A program made the position numbers and the translations under genes. Below the pieces are notes generated by a model. The model did not search any database and was not told where the DNA came from. It worked only from the letters and a program-made list of their open reading frames with translations. From Actinomycetota bacterium (GTDB lineage Bacteria > Actinomycetota > JBBINU01), in NCBI GenBank assembly GCA_037443725.1, contig JBBINU010000011.1, positions 4,833 to 68,832 on the forward strand: a DNA stretch of 64,000 nucleotides. Direction: 5' to 3'. Below are positions 56,542 to 63,175 of this stretch, piece after piece (the stretch's first letter is position 1; every line of letters starts with the position of its first letter).

Positions 56542-57324
56542 GTGGAGTACTCGAGGGAGCTTGCCATGGCGAGGGTCTGGGCCGAGGGGGCCGGGCGTCT
56601 CCTGCTCCGGCAGTTCCGTTCTCCCCATCTCCGGTTCGAGATCAAGCCGGACGGAACCCCTGTGACGCCAGCCGACCGCGAGGCCGAGGAGCTTCTAAGG
56701 GAGGCCATCGGGAAAGCCTTCCCAGGCGACGGGATCCTGGGTGAGGAGGGCGGTGAGGAGGGCGTTGGGGAGAGGCGCTGGATCCTCGACCCTCTCGACG
56801 GAACGAAGAACTTCGTGCGCGGGATACCCATCTTCGGTGTGCTGGTGGCCCTCGAGGTGAAGGGGGAACCGGTGGTGGGGGTGGTTCACGCTCCCGCCCT
56901 GGGAAGCACATGGTGGGCGGCGAGGGGGATGGGGGCTTGGCGGGACGGTGAGAGGATCAGGGTCTCCTCGGTGGCCAGACTTGAGGATGCCTTTATGCTC
57001 CATGGATCGGTCCGGGAGTTCCTCGACAGGGGGGCGGAAGCTGCCTTCCTCGCCCTCGCCCGGGCCACTTCCCGTCAGAGGGGCTTCGGCGACTTCTGGT
57101 CACACCTCCTGGTTGCGGAGGGGGCTGCCGAGATCATGCTTGAGCCTCTCCTTGCCCCGTGGGACTTCGCACCGCTCAAGGTGATTGTCGAGGAGGCAGG
57201 AGGGAGACTCACCGACTTCGAGGGTGGCTTCGCTCTTAGGCCCTCCAGTTGCCTAACCACGAACGGCATCCTCCACGAGGCCGCTCTCGCTGTGCTCGCG
57301 GCCAACAGCCCGGGCCGGCCCTAG
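56542..57324 (+). CDS. hisN: Histidinol-phosphatase, inositol monophosphatase family
   Basis: KPDGTPVTPAD, LGEE, WILDPLDGTKNFVRG, GFGDFW, PWDFAP..IVEEAGG. Confidence 0.82.
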   Translation: MEYSRELAMARVWAEGAGRLLLRQFRSPHLRFEIKPDGTPVTPADREAEELLREAIGKAFPGDGILGEEGGEEGVGERRWILDPLDGTKNFVRGIPIFGVLVALEVKGEPVVGVVHAPALGSTWWAARGMGAWRDGERIRVSSVARLEDAFMLHGSVREFLDRGAEAAFLALARATSRQRGFGDFWSHLLVAEGAAEIMLEPLLAPWDFAPLKVIVEEAGGRLTDFEGGFALRPSSCLTTNGILHEAALAVLAANSPGRP

Positions 57325-58481
57325 CGAAGGGCGTCGTGGCCGGTGAGGTCCCTCCCTATGGTGAGGGTGTGGATGTCCCAGGTCCCCTCATAGGTGTCGA
57401 CGGATTCGAAGTTCAGCATGTGGCGGATGGTGGCGTGCTCGACGGTTATCCCCGCCGCCCCCAAGATCTCCCTGGCGGTCCTCGCCACCTCCAGGGCGGT
57501 CCTCACATTCTCCCTCTTGGCCAGGGAGACCTGGGCGTGGCGGAGTCTTCCCTCCTCCTTCAGCCTTCCTAGGTGGTAGGCGAGAAGCTGGGACCGGGTG
57601 ATGCCTGCCAGCATCCGGACCAGCTTCTCCTGGACGAGCTGGCGGGAGGCGATGGGGGCCCCGAAGGTGACTCTGGTAGAGGCAAATGAGAGAGCCTCCA
57701 GGTAGCAGTCCTCAGCCGCTCCCAGGACGCCCCAGGCGATTCCGTACCTGGCCTGGGTCAGGCAGGAGAGGGCCGCCTTCAGGCCCACCGCCCCGGGGAG
57801 GGCAGCCGTCTCGGGGAGGGCGACCTCGTCGAGGTAGAGCTCGGAAGTGACTGAGGCCCTCATGGAGAACTTCCCCTTTACCTCTCTTGCCTCGAAACCC
57901 GGGGTGTCCGTGGGGACCAGGAAGCCCCTGAACTCTCCCTCCTCGTCCCTCGCCCAGACCAGGGCGATGTGTGCCAGGGTTCCATTGGTGATCCAGGCCT
58001 TCCTGCCGTTCAGGATCCAGGTGTTCCCTCTCTTTCTAGCCCTGGTGCGCGTGGAGCCCGGGTCGGATCCTCCTTCGGGCTCGGTCAGGCCGAAACAGCC
58101 CACCACTCGCCCGGAGGCCAACTCGGGGAGGAGCTTCTTCTGCTCCTCCGAGCCGTAGCTCGCTATGGGGAACATGACGAGGGCTCCCTGGACGCTCGCG
58201 AAGGAGCGGAGGGCCGAGTCCCCTCTCTCCAGCTCCCTCATGGCCAGGCCGTAGGCGACCTCCCCGAGTCCTGCGCACCCGTACTCGGGCGGCAGGTTCG
58301 CTCCCAGGAGGCCCAGCTCCCCCATGGTGGTGACGAGGTGGGAGGGGAAGGCCCCCTCCGTCCACCACCTCGAGATGTGCGGACGGACCTCGCTGTCGAC
58401 GAACTCCCTTACAGCGTCCCTGACGAGCCTCTCCTCGTGGCTGAGGAGCCTTGAGAACTCGAGGTAATCCACCTCCCTCAT
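57321..58481 (-). CDS. Acyl-CoA dehydrogenase, glutaryl-CoA dehydrogenase-like
   Basis: YGLAMRELERGDSALRSFASVQGALVM, FGLTEPEGGSDP, SCLTQARYGIAWG, TYEGT.DIH.L. Confidence 0.9.
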   Translation of the reverse strand: MREVDYLEFSRLLSHEERLVRDAVREFVDSEVRPHISRWWTEGAFPSHLVTTMGELGLLGANLPPEYGCAGLGEVAYGLAMRELERGDSALRSFASVQGALVMFPIASYGSEEQKKLLPELASGRVVGCFGLTEPEGGSDPGSTRTRARKRGNTWILNGRKAWITNGTLAHIALVWARDEEGEFRGFLVPTDTPGFEAREVKGKFSMRASVTSELYLDEVALPETAALPGAVGLKAALSCLTQARYGIAWGVLGAAEDCYLEALSFASTRVTFGAPIASRQLVQEKLVRMLAGITRSQLLAYHLGRLKEEGRLRHAQVSLAKRENVRTALEVARTAREILGAAGITVEHATIRHMLNFESVDTYEGTWDIHTLTIGRDLTGHDALR

Positions 58482-58522: not shown

Positions 58523-59638
58523 TCACCGTACCCGAGAGACCAACGCTACCGCCGTCGCCTTGATTGCCGCTAGCACCCTCTCCCCAGGGCGAACCCCGAG
58601 GTCGGTCAGGGCTTCCCTCGTTACAAGAGCCCGGAGGGGGGCTCCCGCGTCCAGGTCTACCGCGAGGCAGCCGCGATCTGCCTCCCTCACTCCCACCACC
58701 CTTGCCGCGATCAGGTTCCTCTCGCTTCCCCTGGGGGGTTCCCTGTGCAAAGACACGGTCTCGGGCCGGACCCTTAGGTAGCAGGGTCCTGGGGCAGCTG
58801 GTCCGGCCACCCGCACCTCGCCGCCACCGGCCAGGGCCACCAGGGAGAGCTCGCCCGCCCGCACCACCCGGCCAGGAAGGAAAACCTCTCCTCCGAGGAA
58901 GCGCTCGACCTCCTGCGAGGCGGGGGAGGCCGACACCTCCTCCGGGGTCCCCACTTGGACCAGGCGTCCCCCGATGACGAGGGCAAGGCGATCCGCCACG
59001 GCCAGGGCTTCCTCCAGGCTCTGAGTCACCATTACTAGGGTCTTACCGTCTAACACGCGGGGCAGGAGGGAGAGGAGATCGCGCCTGGAAGGAGGGTCCA
59101 CACCCGCGAGCGGTTCATCGAGGAGGAGCAGCTCGGGGGAGGAAGCCACGGTTCTCGCCAGCGCCACACGCCTCCTCTCGCCCACCGAAAGGCGGTGGGC
59201 AGGGCGGTTGGCCAAGTGGTCGGCGCGGGCGAGCTGGAGGGCGGCGCTGGCCGCCTCTCTCCTCCGGGCCCGGGAGAGGCCGAGCCTGGCAAGGCCGAGG
59301 GCCACGTTGGTGAGGGCGGTACCCCGGAAAAGGTGGGGTTCCTGCAGCAGTATGCCGACCCTCCGCCGGAAGGCTGGCAGGGTGGATCTCGTGAGGGGGG
59401 CGCCCCGGTAGAAGAGCCGGCCGCGGAAGGGCGGGAGGAGAGCCCCGAGCACCATTAGGAGGGTGGTCTTCCCGGCTCCGTTGGGGCCAAGGAGGACAAG
59501 TCTCTCCCCCTCGACCACCTCCATCCGGTCAGCCTCGATAGCGGGGTGGTAGTCGTAGCCCGCGCTCACCTCTTCCAGCCGGAGGAGGGGCTCGGTCGCG
59601 AGAGCCGTAAGCATGCCGCCAGGGATGCTCCCTCCCAT
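58523..59638 (-). CDS. tupC: Tungstate ABC transporter ATPase with C-terminal TOBE
   Basis: GPNGAGKT, LSVGERRR, LLDEP, SERN...AAIKATAV; ATG overlaps the tupB stop (TGATG). Confidence 0.85.
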   Translation of the reverse strand: MGGSIPGGMLTALATEPLLRLEEVSAGYDYHPAIEADRMEVVEGERLVLLGPNGAGKTTLLMVLGALLPPFRGRLFYRGAPLTRSTLPAFRRRVGILLQEPHLFRGTALTNVALGLARLGLSRARRREAASAALQLARADHLANRPAHRLSVGERRRVALARTVASSPELLLLDEPLAGVDPPSRRDLLSLLPRVLDGKTLVMVTQSLEEALAVADRLALVIGGRLVQVGTPEEVSASPASQEVERFLGGEVFLPGRVVRAGELSLVALAGGGEVRVAGPAAPGPCYLRVRPETVSLHREPPRGSERNLIAARVVGVREADRGCLAVDLDAGAPLRALVTREALTDLGVRPGERVLAAIKATAVALVSRVR

Positions 59639-60285
59639 CAGCGCCTGTTCCTCTGCTGCAGCAGGGTAAGGAGGGCGGCGACAACAAAGATGAGGCCGAG
59701 GAGGACTGCGGAGAACCCCAGGGCGACGCCGAACTCCCCCTTCCTCACTGCCTCCACAGTGGCGGTGGTGAGGACCTGGGTCTGGCCGTGGATGTTCCCG
59801 CCGACCATGAGGGATGCCCCCACCTCCGAGATGACAGCACCAAAGCCAGCAATGGTTGCTGCCAGGAGGCCGGCGAGGGCCTCTCTTGCGAGCAGCAGGG
59901 CCCGGAGGTGCCAGGGCGGGGCCAGGGCGGCCAGCTCCATCCAGACCGTCCGCGGCAGTTGCTGAAAGGCGGCCATGGAGACCCCCGCCACCACGGGTGT
60001 GGCGATCACCACCTGAGCGATAACCATGGCGGGGTTGGTGTAGAGCAGGCCGAGGAAGCCGAGGGGGCCGCCCCTGAAGAGCAGGAACGCCACGGTGAGC
60101 CCAACCACAGTGGGCGGGAGCCCCATCCCGGCGTTCACCAGTGCTGCAACCACTCGCCTCCCGGGCCACCTCCCGGCCGCCAGGGCCAGGGCGAGGGGAA
60201 GACCGAGGGCGAGAGAGATGAGGGTGGCGAGCCCTGAGACTGCCAGGGACCTCCTCGAGACCTCGAGAAGGAGGCGGTAGTCCAT
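59638..60285 (-). CDS. tupB: Tungstate ABC transporter permease
   Basis: GMGLPPTVVGL, LLYTNPAMVIAQ, GFGAVISEVGASLMVGGNI...TQVLTTA. Confidence 0.9.
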   Translation of the reverse strand: MDYRLLLEVSRRSLAVSGLATLISLALGLPLALALAAGRWPGRRVVAALVNAGMGLPPTVVGLTVAFLLFRGGPLGFLGLLYTNPAMVIAQVVIATPVVAGVSMAAFQQLPRTVWMELAALAPPWHLRALLLAREALAGLLAATIAGFGAVISEVGASLMVGGNIHGQTQVLTTATVEAVRKGEFGVALGFSAVLLGLIFVVAALLTLLQQRNRR

Positions 60286-60315: not shown

Positions 60316-61251
60316 CTAGGGGGCGGGGCGGGAGTTCTCTTCCGAGGAAGGTTCCGGAGACATCCCGCCTCTGCCCTCTGACGGCCTCTCACCCGCGGGT
60401 GCCGAGGCGGCGTCCGGGTGAAACAGGGGTTCTCCGTACCTGTCTCTCCCGAACTCCCCAATGAGGCGCTGAACGTGGGGTGAGACGAGCCAGCGGGCGA
60501 AGGCCATGGCCCCCTCCCGGTTCACCGTGGGGAACCGGGAGGCGTTCACCACGATGACGTGGTAGACGTTGTAGAGCTCGGGGAAGCCCTCGACCAAAGG
60601 GACGAGGGTGAGGCTCGACTTGGTGGCCAGGTACGTTCCTCGGTCGGTCAGGGTGTAGCCCTGCTTTTCCTCGGCGATTCGGAGGGTCTCTCCCATTCCC
60701 TGCCCCGTCCTCAGGTACCAGGGTCCCCCGGGGCTCACCCCCGCTCTTGCCCAGAGCTCCTCCTCTTTCTTGTGGGTTCCGGAATTGTCGGCGCGGGAGA
60801 CGAACGTGGCCCTGACCTTCGAGATAGCGGCGAGTGCATGGGAGGGCGGGAGGCCCCTGACCCTCGCGGGATCGGATGCCGGCCCCACGAGTAAGAAGTC
60901 GTTGTGCATCACGAGCCACCCGACCTCGCCCAGCCCTTTCTTCAGAAACTCCTGCTCGGCCTGGGGGGCGTGGACAAGGAGGACGTCGGCCTCACCCCGG
61001 GAACCGTACGCCAGAGCCTCTCCTGTACCCACCGCGACGGTCTTCACCCTGTACCCCGTTTCCTTCTCGAACATGGGGAGGAGGTAGTCGAGGAGGCCAG
61101 TATCCTGGGTGCTGGTCGTGGTGGCCAGGATCACGTCGGGCCTGGGTGGCCTGGCAGCCGGAGGACTACCCGGCCGGCAGCCGTCCAGACCCAAGAAGGC
61201 CAGGAGCGCCGCGAAGCCAAGAAGTACGACCCGGTTTCCTCGGAACCTCAT
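60316..61251 (-). CDS. tupA: Tungstate-binding lipoprotein
   Basis: LATTTSTQDTGLL (TTTS tungstate signature), VGTGEAL, ADVLLVHAP, SRADNSGTH, GQGMG, YTLTDRGT. Confidence 0.92.
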   Translation of the reverse strand: MRFRGNRVVLLGFAALLAFLGLDGCRPGSPPAARPPRPDVILATTTSTQDTGLLDYLLPMFEKETGYRVKTVAVGTGEALAYGSRGEADVLLVHAPQAEQEFLKKGLGEVGWLVMHNDFLLVGPASDPARVRGLPPSHALAAISKVRATFVSRADNSGTHKKEEELWARAGVSPGGPWYLRTGQGMGETLRIAEEKQGYTLTDRGTYLATKSSLTLVPLVEGFPELYNVYHVIVVNASRFPTVNREGAMAFARWLVSPHVQRLIGEFGRDRYGEPLFHPDAASAPAGERPSEGRGGMSPEPSSEENSRPAP

Positions 61252-61724
61252 TTCATCACCATGACGTTGGTTGCCTTCACCACCGCCCTCACCCGATCCC
61301 CCGGGCTCAGGGAGAGCTCCCGGGCGGCGTCGGAAGTGACGAGGGCCACCATCTCGCCTGGCTCGGTGGCGAGCACTACCTTGGCCACCAGGTCCCCGGG
61401 GACGACCTCGAGAACGGTGGCCCAGATCTGGTTCCGTGCGGAGAGGTGCGCCGGAGGCCTCGGGAGAAAGGAGGAGAGAGCTCTCGTGGCGGCGGCAATT
61501 CCCGAGGGAGAGGAGGAGTAGAGGGAGTGGCGCCCCCGCTTCTCCCTCTCGACCAGGCCTGCCGCGAGGAGAAGACGGAGGTGCTGCGAGACGGCGGGAA
61601 GGGGCAGGCCTAGAGCCTTGGCCAGGGCGGTGGGGGTCTGGGGGCCGCTGGCGCTCAAGAGGGAGAGGATCCGAGCCTTTCTTGGCTCCGCGAGTAGAGA
61701 GAAGGGCGACCCCCTCATGGCCAT
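61248..61724 (-). CDS. ArsR-type winged-HTH regulator fused to a TOBE/Mop domain
   Basis: LAEPRKARIL, LPAVSQHLRLLLAAGLV..EKRGR; then LSARNQI...VTSDAARELSL.PGD.V.AVVKATNVMV; 4-bp overlap with tupA. Confidence 0.88.
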   Translation of the reverse strand: MAMRGSPFSLLAEPRKARILSLLSASGPQTPTALAKALGLPLPAVSQHLRLLLAAGLVEREKRGRHSLYSSSPSGIAAATRALSSFLPRPPAHLSARNQIWATVLEVVPGDLVAKVVLATEPGEMVALVTSDAARELSLSPGDRVRAVVKATNVMVMK

Positions 61725-61775
61725 ATTTTTAGGCTTGCGCAACTGAAAAAGCAAGCTTCGGGCGGAGCTTTCCTT

Positions 61776-61813
61776 TTCTTGGCGTTTCCCTTGGTTCTTG
61801 GCGTTCCCCCTGG
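61776..61813. repeat. 19-bp tandem repeat (17/19 identical)
   Basis: TTCTTGGCGTTTCCCTTGG then TTCTTGGCGTTCCCCCTGG, between divergent genes. Confidence 0.85.
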
Positions 61814-61852: not shown

Positions 61853-63175
61853 GTGGTGGAGATGGTAGGCGAAGGTATTGACGTGGCCGAGTCCGCGGCG
61901 AGGCTCATCGCCCGCGCCGAGAAGCTCTTCCCGCCAGCCGCATACCATGCCTTTCCGCTGGTGGCGGCCCGCGCCGAAGGGAGCAGGATCTTCGACCCCG
62001 ATGGCCGGAGCTTTCTCGACTTCACGAGCGGCATAGCTGTTCTCTCCACGGGCCACCGCCATCCCAGGGTCCTTGAGGCCGTCCGGGATCAGCTCGAGAA
62101 AGTGGTGCACACCTGCTCCGTCGTGGCGTATCACGAGGTTCTCGTGGATCTGGCCGAGGAGCTCCTGGCCACAGCCCCCGGAATGGGAATGGTCTTCTTC
62201 GGCAACAGTGGGGCTGAGGGGGTGGAGGCCGCTCTCAAGCTTGCCATGTACGTCACGGGCAGACCCGCCTTTCTCGCCTTCCGCGGGGGCTTCCACGGCA
62301 GGACTGCGGGCGCTCTCGGGGTTACGAGCTCGAAGGCCTCGTTCCGCAAGGGATACGGGGCCTACCTGCCCCACGTGCAGTTCGTGTCCTACCCATATCC
62401 CTTCAGGTCGCCCCATCCCAGGGAACGCGTGGTGGAGGCGGTCCTCGCCGAGATGGAGGAGGTATTTGCCACCTCGCTACCGCCCGAGGAAGTGGCCGCC
62501 GTTGTGGTGGAGCCTGTCCTCGGGGAGGGCGGGTACGTCCCCGCGCCTCCCGGGTTCCTCAGGGAACTTAGGGAGCTCACCAGGCGCCACGGGATCCTCC
62601 TCATAGCTGATGAGGTTCAGACGGGCGTTGGGAGGACGGGGCGGTGGTGGGCGGTGGAGCACGAGGGCGTCGAGCCCGACATCATGGTGGCGGCGAAGGG
62701 GCTCGCCTCGGGCTTCCCCCTGGGGGCATGTATGGGCCGGGCCGATCTCATGGAGGCCTGGCCGCCCGGGGCCCACGGCACCACCTTCGGCGGGAACCCA
62801 ATCTCCGCGGCTGCTGCCCTGGCCACGCTCAGGGTGGTGAAGGAGGAGGGCCTTCTGGAAAACGCGGCCCGTTTGGGCGGACTTCTTCTGCAGGAGCTTG
62901 GACGGGCCACGGGCCGAGACCCCGGCGTGGGGGAGGTGCGCGGGCTCGGGCTTATGGTGGGAGTGGAGCTGGTTAAGCCGGGGGGGAAGGAGCCCGACCC
63001 CGAGAGGACCGAGAGGGTACAGAAGGAGGCGTTCAGGCGGGGGCTTCTCCTCCTCACCTGCGGGCCCTACCGCAATGTGTTGCGTTTCGTCCCGCCCCTC
63101 ACGGTGAGGGAAGCGGAGATAGCAGAGGCGGTCGGGATTTTTGCGGAGGCCCTCGAGGCCTCCCGGGAACTTTAA
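61853..63175 (+). CDS. Class III aminotransferase, 4-aminobutyrate aminotransferase-like
   Basis: DFTSGIAV, NSGAEGVEAA, FHGRT, DEVQTGVGRTG, AAKGLASG (PLP Lys), HGTTFGGNP. Confidence 0.92.
   Translation: MVEMVGEGIDVAESAARLIARAEKLFPPAAYHAFPLVAARAEGSRIFDPDGRSFLDFTSGIAVLSTGHRHPRVLEAVRDQLEKVVHTCSVVAYHEVLVDLAEELLATAPGMGMVFFGNSGAEGVEAALKLAMYVTGRPAFLAFRGGFHGRTAGALGVTSSKASFRKGYGAYLPHVQFVSYPYPFRSPHPRERVVEAVLAEMEEVFATSLPPEEVAAVVVEPVLGEGGYVPAPPGFLRELRELTRRHGILLIADEVQTGVGRTGRWWAVEHEGVEPDIMVAAKGLASGFPLGACMGRADLMEAWPPGAHGTTFGGNPISAAAALATLRVVKEEGLLENAARLGGLLLQELGRATGRDPGVGEVRGLGLMVGVELVKPGGKEPDPERTERVQKEAFRRGLLLLTCGPYRNVLRFVPPLTVREAEIAEAVGIFAEALEASREL

What the first reader, a model, noticed from the sequence alone, without database searches (positions are those of the whole stretch)
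61248..61760. ArsR-TOBE regulator heading a tungstate tupABC operon in an actinobacterium
Seen: an ArsR-like HTH joined to one Mop/TOBE domain with the SARN oxyanion motif, translationally coupled to tupA(TTTS)-tupB-tupC. An inverted repeat GCTTGC-N12-GCAAGC (61732-61755) lies over a possible leaderless promoter. Known: ModE uses a different wHTH plus two TOBE domains and TunR uses a recombinase-like domain. Inference: a distinct tungstate/molybdate-sensing autorepressor. A dedicated W importer implies tungstoenzymes such as AOR, which is unusual for Actinomycetota.
Basis: partly seen in the sequence, partly recalled or inferred. Interest (0 to 1): 0.62.

Follow-up and report, generated by a model that had tools for sequence, protein, structure and literature searches.

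The report
ArsR-TOBE regulator heading tungstate importer operon
A small gene that joins an ArsR-type DNA-binding head to one molybdate/tungstate-binding TOBE domain sits at the front of a tungstate uptake operon in a deep-branching actinobacterium. It belongs to a rare, unstudied family of probable tungsten/molybdenum-sensing gene switches, so it is a new variant of a known kind of circuit rather than a new kind.

Summary
Window 61248-61718/61724 (-) encodes a 156/158-aa protein with a complete ArsR/SmtB winged helix, a disordered linker and one TOBE/Mop barrel that keeps the SARN...T...KA oxyanion segments. Its stop overlaps the tupA start (ATGA), and tupB and tupC-TOBE follow.

The fusion is real and recurrent. 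An exhaustive search of 1.84 billion representatives gave two other full-length 50%-identity clusters. One (P0034) heads an orthologous tupABC operon with the same 4-nt overlap. The other has at least 120 90%-identity clusters, a few labelled Dormibacterota, and precedes modABC in every locus I could resolve. None of 400 sampled genomes of the window's own phylum has the fusion.

All 23 distinct non-window family loci examined have a TAnnnT box 6-7 nt before the ATG and no Shine-Dalgarno, so the genes look leaderless. In the window this points to the second ATG (61718).

It spans the putative -35 and spacer but is only weakly above chance. I found no regulon sites elsewhere.

The genome has three AOR-family genes. 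However, AOR and TupA-like genes each occur in about 20% of sampled Actinomycetota, so "unusual" is overstated.

Best reading: an oxyanion-dependent autorepressor of the operon, with ModE-like logic. No paper I could search describes this architecture.

The parts
61248..61718 (-). ArsR-TOBE regulator CDS, 156 aa from the second ATG (61718). Alternative starts are ATG 61724 (158 aa) and TTG 61754 (168 aa).
   Evidence: Pfam HTH_20/HTH_5 + TOBE. NCBIfam ArsR/SmtB 62.4 bits, above the cut-off of 55. AF2 model, pLDDT 83.5: a1-a2-a3-a4-b1-b2-a5, disordered linker 88-95, b-barrel 99-157. Foldseek: ArsR/SmtB/SrnR for the N half, Mop/ModG/Tungbindin for the C half. Full-length homologues P0034 and P0057. 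The second ATG gives MRGSPFSLL, which aligns with P0034 MRPEQLFSLL, and it fits the family's -10-to-ATG spacing.
61725..61730 (-). Putative -10 box AAAAAT, 6 nt upstream of the ATG at 61718 (leaderless-type promoter).
   Evidence: Read. The same geometry (TAnnnT + 6-7 nt + ATG, no SD) is present in 23 of 23 distinct non-window family loci examined. This hexamer departs from that consensus at position 1. The generic sigma-70 scan found no promoter.
61749..61754 (-). Putative -35 box TTGCTT, with an 18-nt spacer to the -10.
   Evidence: Sequence reading only. It matches TTGACA at 3 of 6 positions. Weak.
61733..61756 (.). Inverted repeat GCTTGC-N12-GCAAGC, a candidate operator spanning the -35 box and the spacer.
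   Evidence: I4. Unique in the genome. Shuffle P about 0.14 for the intergenic region and 0.04 for the promoter zone.
61735..61742 (.). Perfect 8-bp palindrome TTGCGCAA inside the spacer, an alternative operator core.
   Evidence: I5. Only 2 copies in the 1.72-Mb genome. The orthologous tup operon L083 has TTGCGCAG at the centre of an imperfect 32-bp palindrome in the same place relative to its -10 and ATG.
60316..61251 (-). tupA, a lipoprotein substrate-binding protein with the ATTTSTQD motif. Its ATG overlaps the regulator stop (ATGA).
   Evidence: PF12849 at 158.9 bits. TupA model NF041772 at 213 bits, below the equivalog cut-off of 400. PDB 5my5, 3lr1 and 3muq at E 1e-59 to 1e-71. Signal peptide with an LDGC lipobox, read.
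59638..60285 (-). tupB permease.
   Evidence: NF038017 at 203 bits (cut-off 100). TupB model at 97 bits, below its cut-off.
58523..59638 (-). tupC ATPase with a C-terminal TOBE domain. Its start overlaps the tupB stop (TGATG).
   Evidence: ABC_tran + TOBE. Translation and sequence.
61776..61813 (.). Two tandem 19-nt direct repeats (TTCTTGGCGTTTCCCTTGG / TTCTTGGCGTTCCCCCTGG) between the regulator and the divergent aminotransferase gene. It is unclear whether they belong to this circuit.
   Evidence: D1. No further copies in the genome.

Best explanation
The gene encodes a one-component tungstate/molybdate sensor-regulator. An ArsR/SmtB-type winged-helix dimer lacks the usual ArsR metal sites and carries one TOBE/Mop domain per subunit on a flexible linker.

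The proposed mechanism is inferred by analogy with ModE, with molbindins, and with the paired TOBE domains of ModC (the last from my own knowledge):
1. The two TOBE domains of the dimer form oxyanion sites at their interface. The sites use the SARN segment, Thr130 and Lys150-Ala151.
2. Oxyanion binding fixes the relative position of the two DNA-reading heads.
3. The loaded dimer then binds a dyad in the spacer and -35 region of its own leaderless promoter (61733-61756 and/or the TTGCGCAA core).
4. This shuts off the regulator-tupA-tupB-tupC operon when the cell has enough tungstate.
5. When tungstate is scarce the operon is transcribed and supplies W to the three AOR-family enzymes.

What is shown: the domain architecture, the fold, conserved ligand-segment residues, operon structure, recurrent linkage to tupABC/modABC, the leaderless promoter geometry, and the presence of AOR genes.

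What is inferred: ligand identity, dimer-interface binding, the operator, and the direction of regulation.
For: - Architecture and fold.
- The sequence has no Cys and no a5 DxHx10HxxE motif (read), so the ArsR core has no canonical metal site and the TOBE is the only candidate sensor.
- In the 40-member family alignment, A96, R97, N98 and T130 are invariant and S95, K150 and A151 are nearly invariant. These correspond to ModE S126/R128, T163 and K183/A184, as listed in PMC11672702.
- Conserved gene linkage in three mutually divergent clusters at 35-38% identity. The window and P0034 sit directly before tupABC with the same ATGA overlap, and their TupA proteins are 50% identical. The P0057 group sits directly before modA in 16 of the 16 loci where a downstream gene could be called and matched confidently.
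- Leaderless geometry appears in 23 of 23 distinct non-window family loci.
- The candidate dyads lie within the only AT-rich stretch of the intergenic region (61720-61759, 55-60% A+T), which spans the putative -35 and -10 boxes.
- The regulator and TupC hold the only two TOBE domains in the genome.
- Three AOR-family genes create a demand for W.
Against:
- The dyad is short and statistically weak.
- No candidate operator is conserved across the family. The TTGCGCAA seen about 80 nt upstream in most of the mod-linked (Dormibacterota-type) loci is read as codons 2-4 of the divergent leaderless TrmO gene in L086; the same reading is inferred for the others.
- The -35 is poor and the -10 lacks the first T.
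- Canonical ArsR/SmtB sensors work the opposite way: ligand releases DNA.
- TOBE domains do not distinguish W from Mo, and the genome has a second, modABC-like importer. The effector could therefore be either oxyanion.
- In the window and P0034 the ModE S166-equivalent residue is Ala (T-S/T-D-A), whereas the mod-linked group has T-T-x-S.
Confidence: 0.62

Rival explanations
1. The sensor is the same but the logic is canonical ArsR/SmtB. The apo-protein represses, and tungstate/molybdate binding releases it from DNA, so the importer is induced by its substrate.
For: All characterised ArsR/SmtB metal sensors are de-repressed by ligand (general knowledge). The N domain is a bona fide ArsR/SmtB fold.
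Against: Substrate induction of a high-affinity trace-metal importer is physiologically backwards. ModE, the characterised TOBE-sensor regulator checked here, represses the molybdate uptake genes when loaded with molybdate (PMC11980592 and PMC11672702). From my own knowledge, unchecked here, TunR activation of modABC is likewise diminished by tungstate. The ArsR allosteric metal sites are absent (sequence).
Confidence: 0.2
2. It is an activator of the divergent aminotransferase gene (61853-63175) or of another target. On this reading the 19-nt direct repeats (61776-61813) are the real binding sites and the link to tupABC is only positional.
For: Two near-identical 19-nt tandem repeats lie between the two genes. 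The second oxyanion importer on contig C7 is also divergent from a class-III aminotransferase.
Against: The direct repeats are unique to this locus. Dimeric ArsR proteins bind dyads, not direct repeats. The two aminotransferases are only 34% identical. Family members in other organisms have different divergent neighbours (a tRNA, TrmO) but always have the transporter downstream.
Confidence: 0.08
3. The TOBE domain is not a free oxyanion sensor. It instead docks on the TOBE domain of TupC, so the transporter's activity state, not the cytoplasmic oxyanion, controls the regulator (transport-coupled regulation, as for MalK-MalT).
For: A single TOBE needs a partner TOBE to form a site. TupC carries the only other TOBE in the genome.
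Against: The regulator TOBE is 43-56% identical to the TOBE domains of HTH_17-TOBE regulators but only 37% identical to its own TupC TOBE. An ArsR dimer already supplies two TOBE domains. The oxyanion-contact residues are conserved.
Confidence: 0.05
4. The fusion is an artefact: two neighbouring genes (an arsR gene and a mop gene) joined by an assembly or frameshift error.
For: The genome is a 24-contig draft.
Against: Single-stretch, full-length alignments exist to independent proteins from other samples (P0034 over 7-158, P0057 over 9-158). At least 120 90%-identity clusters have the same two Pfam domains. The frame is continuous and the linker carries the family's conserved LP/LSARN features.
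Confidence: 0.01

Closest known systems
ModE (E. coli; PDB 1b9m, 1o7l)
   Same: A one-component oxyanion sensor with an N-terminal winged helix, a linker and a TOBE/Mop sensor carrying the SARN, T and KA contact segments. It sits next to, and represses, the Mo/W importer genes. Foldseek aligns the whole model to ModE (E 4e-5) but with rmsd about 14 A, meaning the same parts in a different arrangement.
   Different: ModE has a ModE/LysR-type head and two tandem TOBE domains. This protein has an ArsR/SmtB head, including the a5 helix, and one TOBE. The ModE model NF007957 matches only the TOBE part, at 20.8 bits against a cut-off of 369.
HTH_17 (MerR/excisionase-type) + single-TOBE regulators upstream of modABC. 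These appear to correspond to the 'ModE-like' one-TOBE class of PMC11980592. Examples are L014-L020, L032, L035 and L044.
   Same: Same size class (125-140 aa) and layout: DNA-binding head, linker, one TOBE ending in VVKATNVMVE. Where I checked (L019, L020) they take the same position in front of the transporter. Their TOBE domains are the closest relatives of this one, at 43-56% identity.
   Different: The DNA-binding head is unrelated (IGEAAELLGVSxDTxRRW type). As far as I could find, they have not been characterised experimentally either.
ArsR/SmtB metalloregulators (SmtB 1r1t, ArsR 6j05, CzrA, SrnR 7p6f)
   Same: The N-terminal 86 residues have the full a1-a5 plus wing topology and the VSQHL recognition helix. 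SmtB scores E 9e-17 by profile. TM-scores normalised to the target are 0.7-0.8, and rmsd to SrnR is 1.8 A.
   Different: There is no a3N, a5 or other Cys/His metal site. A C-terminal TOBE domain is appended. The likely effector is an oxyanion, and the likely logic is co-repression rather than de-repression.
TunR (Desulfovibrio; Kazakov et al. 2013, from my own knowledge) and TaoR (Rajeev et al. 2019, cited in PMC11980592)
   Same: Both are alternative W/Mo-responsive regulators built by joining an oxyanion-binding module to a non-ModE DNA-binding head, and both control Mo/W transport or tungstoenzymes.
   Different: TunR has a XerC/D-like head plus ModE-like Mop domains. TaoR has HTH_17 plus a PBP-like (PF12727) sensor. 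Pfam finds neither kind of domain in this protein.

Membership tests
ArsR/SmtB family | Winged-helix fold a1-a2-a3-a4-b1-b2-a5 with the family sequence signature | tested here: met
   NF033788 at 62.4 bits, above the cut-off of 55. HTH_5 and HTH_20 above their cut-offs. AF2 topology. Foldseek target-normalised TM 0.6-0.8 to ArsR, SmtB, CadC, CzrA and SrnR.
ArsR/SmtB family | An inducer-recognition metal site (a3/a3N Cys motif, a5 Asp/His/Glu site, or a variant Cys site) | tested here: not met
   The 158-aa sequence has no cysteine and no DxHx10HxxE in a5 (sequence).
ArsR/SmtB family | Ligand binding releases the repressor from a dyad operator | not testable with these tools
   Needs EMSA or a reporter assay.
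ModE | ModE-type N-terminal DNA-binding domain | tested here: not met
   NF007957 aligns only to residues 103-167, at 20.8 bits against a cut-off of 369. The N domain is ArsR-type.
ModE | Two tandem Mop/TOBE domains | tested here: not met
   A single TOBE, at residues 105-166.
ModE | Oxyanion-contact segments (SARN, T, KA) | tested here: met
   S95-A96-R97-N98, T130 and K150-A151 are invariant or nearly invariant across 40 family members. ModE residues are from PMC11672702. The S166 equivalent is Ala in this protein.
TOBE/Mop molbindin domain | TOBE b-barrel above the family threshold | tested here: met
   PF03459 at 55.4 bits (cut-off 22.3). TIGR00638 at 50.9 bits, just below its cut-off of 55. 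Profile hits to ModG, Mop and Tungbindin at E 1e-14 to 1e-26. Target-normalised TM 0.75-0.78 to Mop and Tungbindin.
TunR | XerC/D recombinase-like DNA-binding domain | tested here: not met
   No integrase or recombinase domain among the Pfam hits.
TaoR | HTH_17 head plus PBP-like (PF12727) sensor | tested here: not met
   Neither domain is found in the regulator.
TupABC tungstate importer | TupA-type binding protein (PBP_like_2/COG2998 type, TTTS motif) with a permease and an ATPase in one operon | tested here: met
   PF12849 at 158.9 bits. ATTTSTQD motif. E 2e-66 to D. alaskensis TupA (5my5) and 3e-59 to Geobacter TupA (3lr1). Permease and ATPase-TOBE genes follow with overlaps. The NCBIfam TupA equivalog cut-off is not reached (213 of 400 bits), as for all 62 TupA-like hits in the phylum sample.
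TupABC tungstate importer | Preference for tungstate over molybdate | not testable with these tools
   Needs binding measurements on TupA.

The most novel reading that the evidence does not exclude
ArsR-TOBE proteins would be the first ArsR/SmtB-family regulators that sense an oxyanion through an appended TOBE domain and bind DNA only when loaded, inverting the family's usual logic. The tup-linked branch (this gene and P0034, with T-S/T-D-A in place of T-T-x-S in the ligand segment) would be a tungstate-preferring sensor. That would make it a compact 156-aa, cysteine-free, probably thermostable tungsten switch.
Probability: 0.25. Interest if true: 0.6.

Novelty: new variant of a known kind. 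Interest (0 to 1): 0.42.

Why it matters
Tungsten and molybdenum homeostasis is known mainly through ModE, plus TunR and TaoR in sulfate reducers. This locus shows that the TOBE sensor has also been joined to an ArsR/SmtB head. The resulting family is consistently placed in front of Mo/W importers and has, as far as I could find, never been studied.

It gives a small, simple candidate for asking two questions:
- How can a single TOBE per subunit couple oxyanion binding to DNA binding?
- Can an ArsR scaffold run with co-repressor logic?

It also marks this deep-branching, small-genome actinobacterium as a probable tungsten user, with TupABC and three AOR-family enzymes.

It is not a new principle. 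It is one more product of domain shuffling among Mo/W regulators.

Tried and rejected
1. Regulon search. GCTTGC-N12-GCAAGC, relaxed spacings and TTGCGCAA were sought genome-wide and in the 200 nt before modA (C7), the three AOR genes and the TtrA-like gene. No second site and no shared 8-10-mers of note were found. A wider regulon is therefore unsupported.

2. Family-wide operator. TTGCGCAA-like cores recur about 80 nt upstream in the mod-linked (Dormibacterota-type) loci. In L086 they read as codons 2-4 (M-V/I-A-Q) of the divergent leaderless TrmO gene, which has its own TACGAT box; I infer the same for the others. I rejected them as evidence for an operator.

3. Generic sigma-70 scan. It found no promoter. 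The leaderless reading rests on family comparison instead.

4. Fusion within the phylum. A profile search of 400 evenly drawn genomes gave only single-domain hits besides the own genome, and 40 'relatives' gave none.

5. Recent duplication of an 'importer + divergent aminotransferase' module. Rejected: the aminotransferases are 34% identical and the ATPases 34%.

6. An out-of-frame query (61248-61719) gave no PDB hits. This was my error. I repeated the search with the alignment.

8. Literature. No paper in the library holds both 'TOBE domain' and 'ArsR'. The only paper holding tungstate, ArsR and TOBE together is unrelated.

9. Regulators at other actinobacterial tupA loci. Upstream ORFs were scanned at L175, L177, L179 and L180. 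They gave a LysR-type regulator (L175), recA/recX (L177) and ORFs with no Pfam hit (L179, L180), and no ArsR-TOBE.
Full report
OBSERVATION

The minus-strand ORF at 61248-61754 is real. Pfam places HTH_20/HTH_5 (ArsR-type) at residues 21-70 and one TOBE domain at residues 105-166 (55.4 bits, cut-off 22.3). NCBIfam gives the ArsR/SmtB subfamily model at 62.4 bits (cut-off 55) and the Mop domain at 50.9 bits.

The regulator stop codon overlaps the tupA start as ATGA (61248-61251, read).
- TupA (60316-61251) has a lipoprotein signal peptide and the ATTTSTQD motif. It matches solved TupA proteins at E 2e-66 (D. alaskensis, 5my5) and 3e-59 (Geobacter, 3lr1).
- tupB is 59638-60285.
- tupC (58523-59638) overlaps tupB by one base and ends in a TOBE domain.

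THE PROTEIN

An AlphaFold2 model built on a 40-member family alignment (mean pLDDT 83.5) shows three parts:
- the canonical ArsR/SmtB topology, a1-a2-a3-a4-wing-a5 (residues 7-86);
- a low-confidence linker (88-95);
- a TOBE b-barrel (99-157).

Foldseek matches the N half to ArsR, SmtB, CadC, CzrA and SrnR (target-normalised TM 0.6-0.8; rmsd 1.8 A to SrnR). It matches the C half to Mop, ModG and the E. limosum tungstate-binding protein (TM 0.75-0.78). ModE is the only solved chain that aligns over both halves, and only loosely (rmsd about 14 A). By sequence, no PDB chain covers both domains.

The protein has no cysteine and no a5 metal site, so the ArsR part has no sensor of its own. The TOBE part keeps S95-A96-R97-N98, T130 and K150-A151. 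These are invariant or nearly invariant across the family and correspond to the ModE molybdate contacts listed in PMC11672702.

IS THE FUSION REAL, AND HOW COMMON IS IT?

An exhaustive phmmer search of 1.84 billion representative proteins (50%-identity clusters) returned only two other full-length, single-stretch matches among the best 150: P0034 (161 aa) and P0057 (172 aa). A full-length relative scores on both domains, so it should outrank single-domain hits. I therefore read this as about three 50%-identity clusters detectable from this query.

A profile search of the 5.8-billion-protein collection then found at least 120 90%-identity clusters carrying HTH_20 + TOBE. Nearly all are of the P0057 type. 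The few with an NCBI name are labelled Candidatus Dormibacteraeota. Sources call them 'molybdopterin-binding protein' or 'ArsR/SmtB family'.

Genomic context:
- P0034 sits directly before a TupA-like gene (50% identical to the window's TupA), a permease and an ATPase-TOBE, with the same 4-nt overlap.
- P0057 and its relatives sit directly before modA and modB. This held in 16 of the 16 loci where a downstream gene could be called and matched confidently, often with a 4-nt overlap.

The fusion is thus a genuine, recurrent regulator family tied to Mo/W importers. It is not an assembly artefact and not a one-off.

Within the window's own phylum it looks exceptional. A profile search of 400 evenly drawn genomes gave only single-domain hits. 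Other actinobacterial tupA loci I inspected have a LysR-type regulator or none in view.

The closest relatives of the TOBE domain (43-56% identity) belong to 125-140-aa proteins that join a MerR/excisionase-type HTH_17 head to one TOBE. L019 and L020 precede modABC. Members come from Thermoleophilia, Chloroflexota, Dormibacterota, Leifsonia, Arthrobacter and Acidimicrobiia. The simplest history is therefore a swap of the DNA-binding head on a regulator-type TOBE.

PROMOTER AND OPERATOR

In all 23 distinct non-window family loci examined, a TAnnnT hexamer lies 6-7 nt before the ATG, with no Shine-Dalgarno. This is the signature of leaderless transcripts.

In the window the equivalent geometry is AAAAAT (61730-61725) + ATGGCC + ATG at 61718. 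That start yields MRGSPFSLL, which aligns with MRPEQLFSLL of P0034. I therefore prefer the second ATG (156 aa). The hexamer departs from the family consensus at its first base, the best -35 (TTGCTT, 18-nt spacer) is weak, and the generic scan found no promoter.

It is unique in the genome. However, a dyad of that kind arises in 14% of shuffles of the intergenic region and in 4% of shuffles of the promoter zone.

Inside it lies a perfect palindrome, TTGCGCAA (61735-61742), which occurs only twice in 1.72 Mb. The orthologous tup operon L083 has TTGCGCAG at the centre of an imperfect 32-bp palindrome in the same position between its -35 and -10. That is suggestive, but it rests on two sequences.

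TTGCGCAA-like cores in the mod-linked loci are best explained as the first codons of the divergent leaderless TrmO gene.

No similar site precedes the second (modABC-like) importer, the AOR genes or the TtrA-like gene. If the dyad is the operator, the regulon is this operon alone.

TUNGSTEN USE BY THE HOST

The genome is a 1.72-Mb, 24-contig draft, about 96% complete. It has four WhiB-family genes, so it is an actinobacterium. No held relative is nearer than the same phylum.

It encodes:
- three AOR-family proteins of 613-616 aa;
- one TAT-exported TtrA-like bis-PGD enzyme and a NuoG-like protein, but no recognisable formate dehydrogenase;
- a second, modABC-like importer on contig C7.

The inference 'W importer implies tungstoenzymes' therefore holds. 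The claim that this is unusual for the phylum does not hold well. AOR_N genes occur in 59 of 301 evenly drawn genomes (42 of 198 genera), and TupA-like genes in 62 of 301 (49 of 198 genera).

MECHANISM

The best-supported reading is an oxyanion-dependent autorepressor with ModE-like logic.
1. The ArsR dimer brings two TOBE domains together.
2. Tungstate or molybdate binds at their interface.
3. The loaded dimer binds the dyad over its own leaderless promoter and shuts off regulator-tupABC.

The parts, their conservation and their linkage are shown. Ligand identity, the operator and the sign of regulation are inferred.

The main rival is canonical ArsR logic, in which ligand releases the repressor. 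Minor rivals are control of the divergent aminotransferase through the 19-nt direct repeats, or TOBE-TOBE docking onto TupC.

COMPARISON WITH WHAT IS KNOWN

This protein works like ModE but fails ModE membership on both the head and the number of TOBE domains. It is an ArsR/SmtB member by fold and sequence but lacks any family metal site. It is neither TunR (recombinase-like head) nor TaoR (HTH_17 + PBP-like sensor).

A 2025 survey of TOBE architectures in gut microbes lists ModE/TudE, a one-TOBE ModE-like class and a TaoR-like class, but no ArsR-TOBE (PMC11980592). No paper in the searchable library holds both 'TOBE domain' and 'ArsR'.

VERDICT

This is a new variant of a known kind: an uncharacterised, rare regulator family, with this copy one of only two known lineages in which it heads tupABC. 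Interest is moderate.

Noticed in passing
window 61776-61813: Two tandem 19-nt direct repeats (TTCTTGGCGTTTCCCTTGG / TTCTTGGCGTTCCCCCTGG) lie between the regulator and the divergent class-III aminotransferase gene (61853-63175). They have no other copies in the genome. They could be a binding site for another regulator.
   Followed up: partly
G000 contig C7:70450-73302 (L174:10450-13302, minus strand): A second oxyanion ABC importer: modA (TIGR01256 at 92.6 bits, cut-off 62.5), a modB-like permease and a WtpC/ModC-like ATPase with no PF03459 TOBE hit. No adjacent regulator is visible. It too is divergent from a class-III aminotransferase, and it lies about 6.5 kb from one AOR gene.
   Followed up: partly
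L086:5880-6003 and L087-L120 upstream regions: In the mod-linked (Dormibacterota-type) loci both the ArsR-TOBE gene and the divergent TrmO-like gene appear leaderless. Each has a GCTACGAT-type -10 box 6-7 nt before its ATG, giving back-to-back leaderless promoters about 80 nt apart. I read this directly for L086 and infer it for the others.
   Followed up: partly
L014-L020, L032, L035, L044, L055 (genome contigs): There is a widespread class of 125-140-aa HTH_17 (MerR/excisionase-type) + single-TOBE proteins in Actinomycetota, Chloroflexota and Dormibacterota. L019 and L020 lie directly upstream of modABC. As far as I could find, this class also has not been tested experimentally.
   Followed up: partly
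alignment A1 (window regulator residues 130-133 and 148-152): The two tup-linked proteins (window, P0034) have T-S/T-D-A and VVKAT. The mod-linked group has T-T-x-S and VFKAH in the oxyanion-contact segments. This might relate to W versus Mo preference, but the tup side has only two sequences.
   Followed up: no
G000 contig C4:181767-184949 (L183): A 1060-aa TAT-signal bis-PGD enzyme most similar to tetrathionate reductase TtrA (516 bits, below the equivalog cut-off). It is the only clear Mo/W-bisPGD enzyme in this small genome besides a NuoG-like protein.
   Followed up: partly
window 57321-58481 (minus strand): An acyl-CoA dehydrogenase-like gene starts 41 nt after the tupC stop on the same strand and may be co-transcribed with the tup operon. 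I did not look for a terminator there.
   Followed up: no
G002:C1:779181-780289: In another genome of the phylum a small TOBE-only ORF (118 aa open frame) lies immediately downstream of a TupA-like gene. This is a different way of pairing TOBE with tupA.
   Followed up: no
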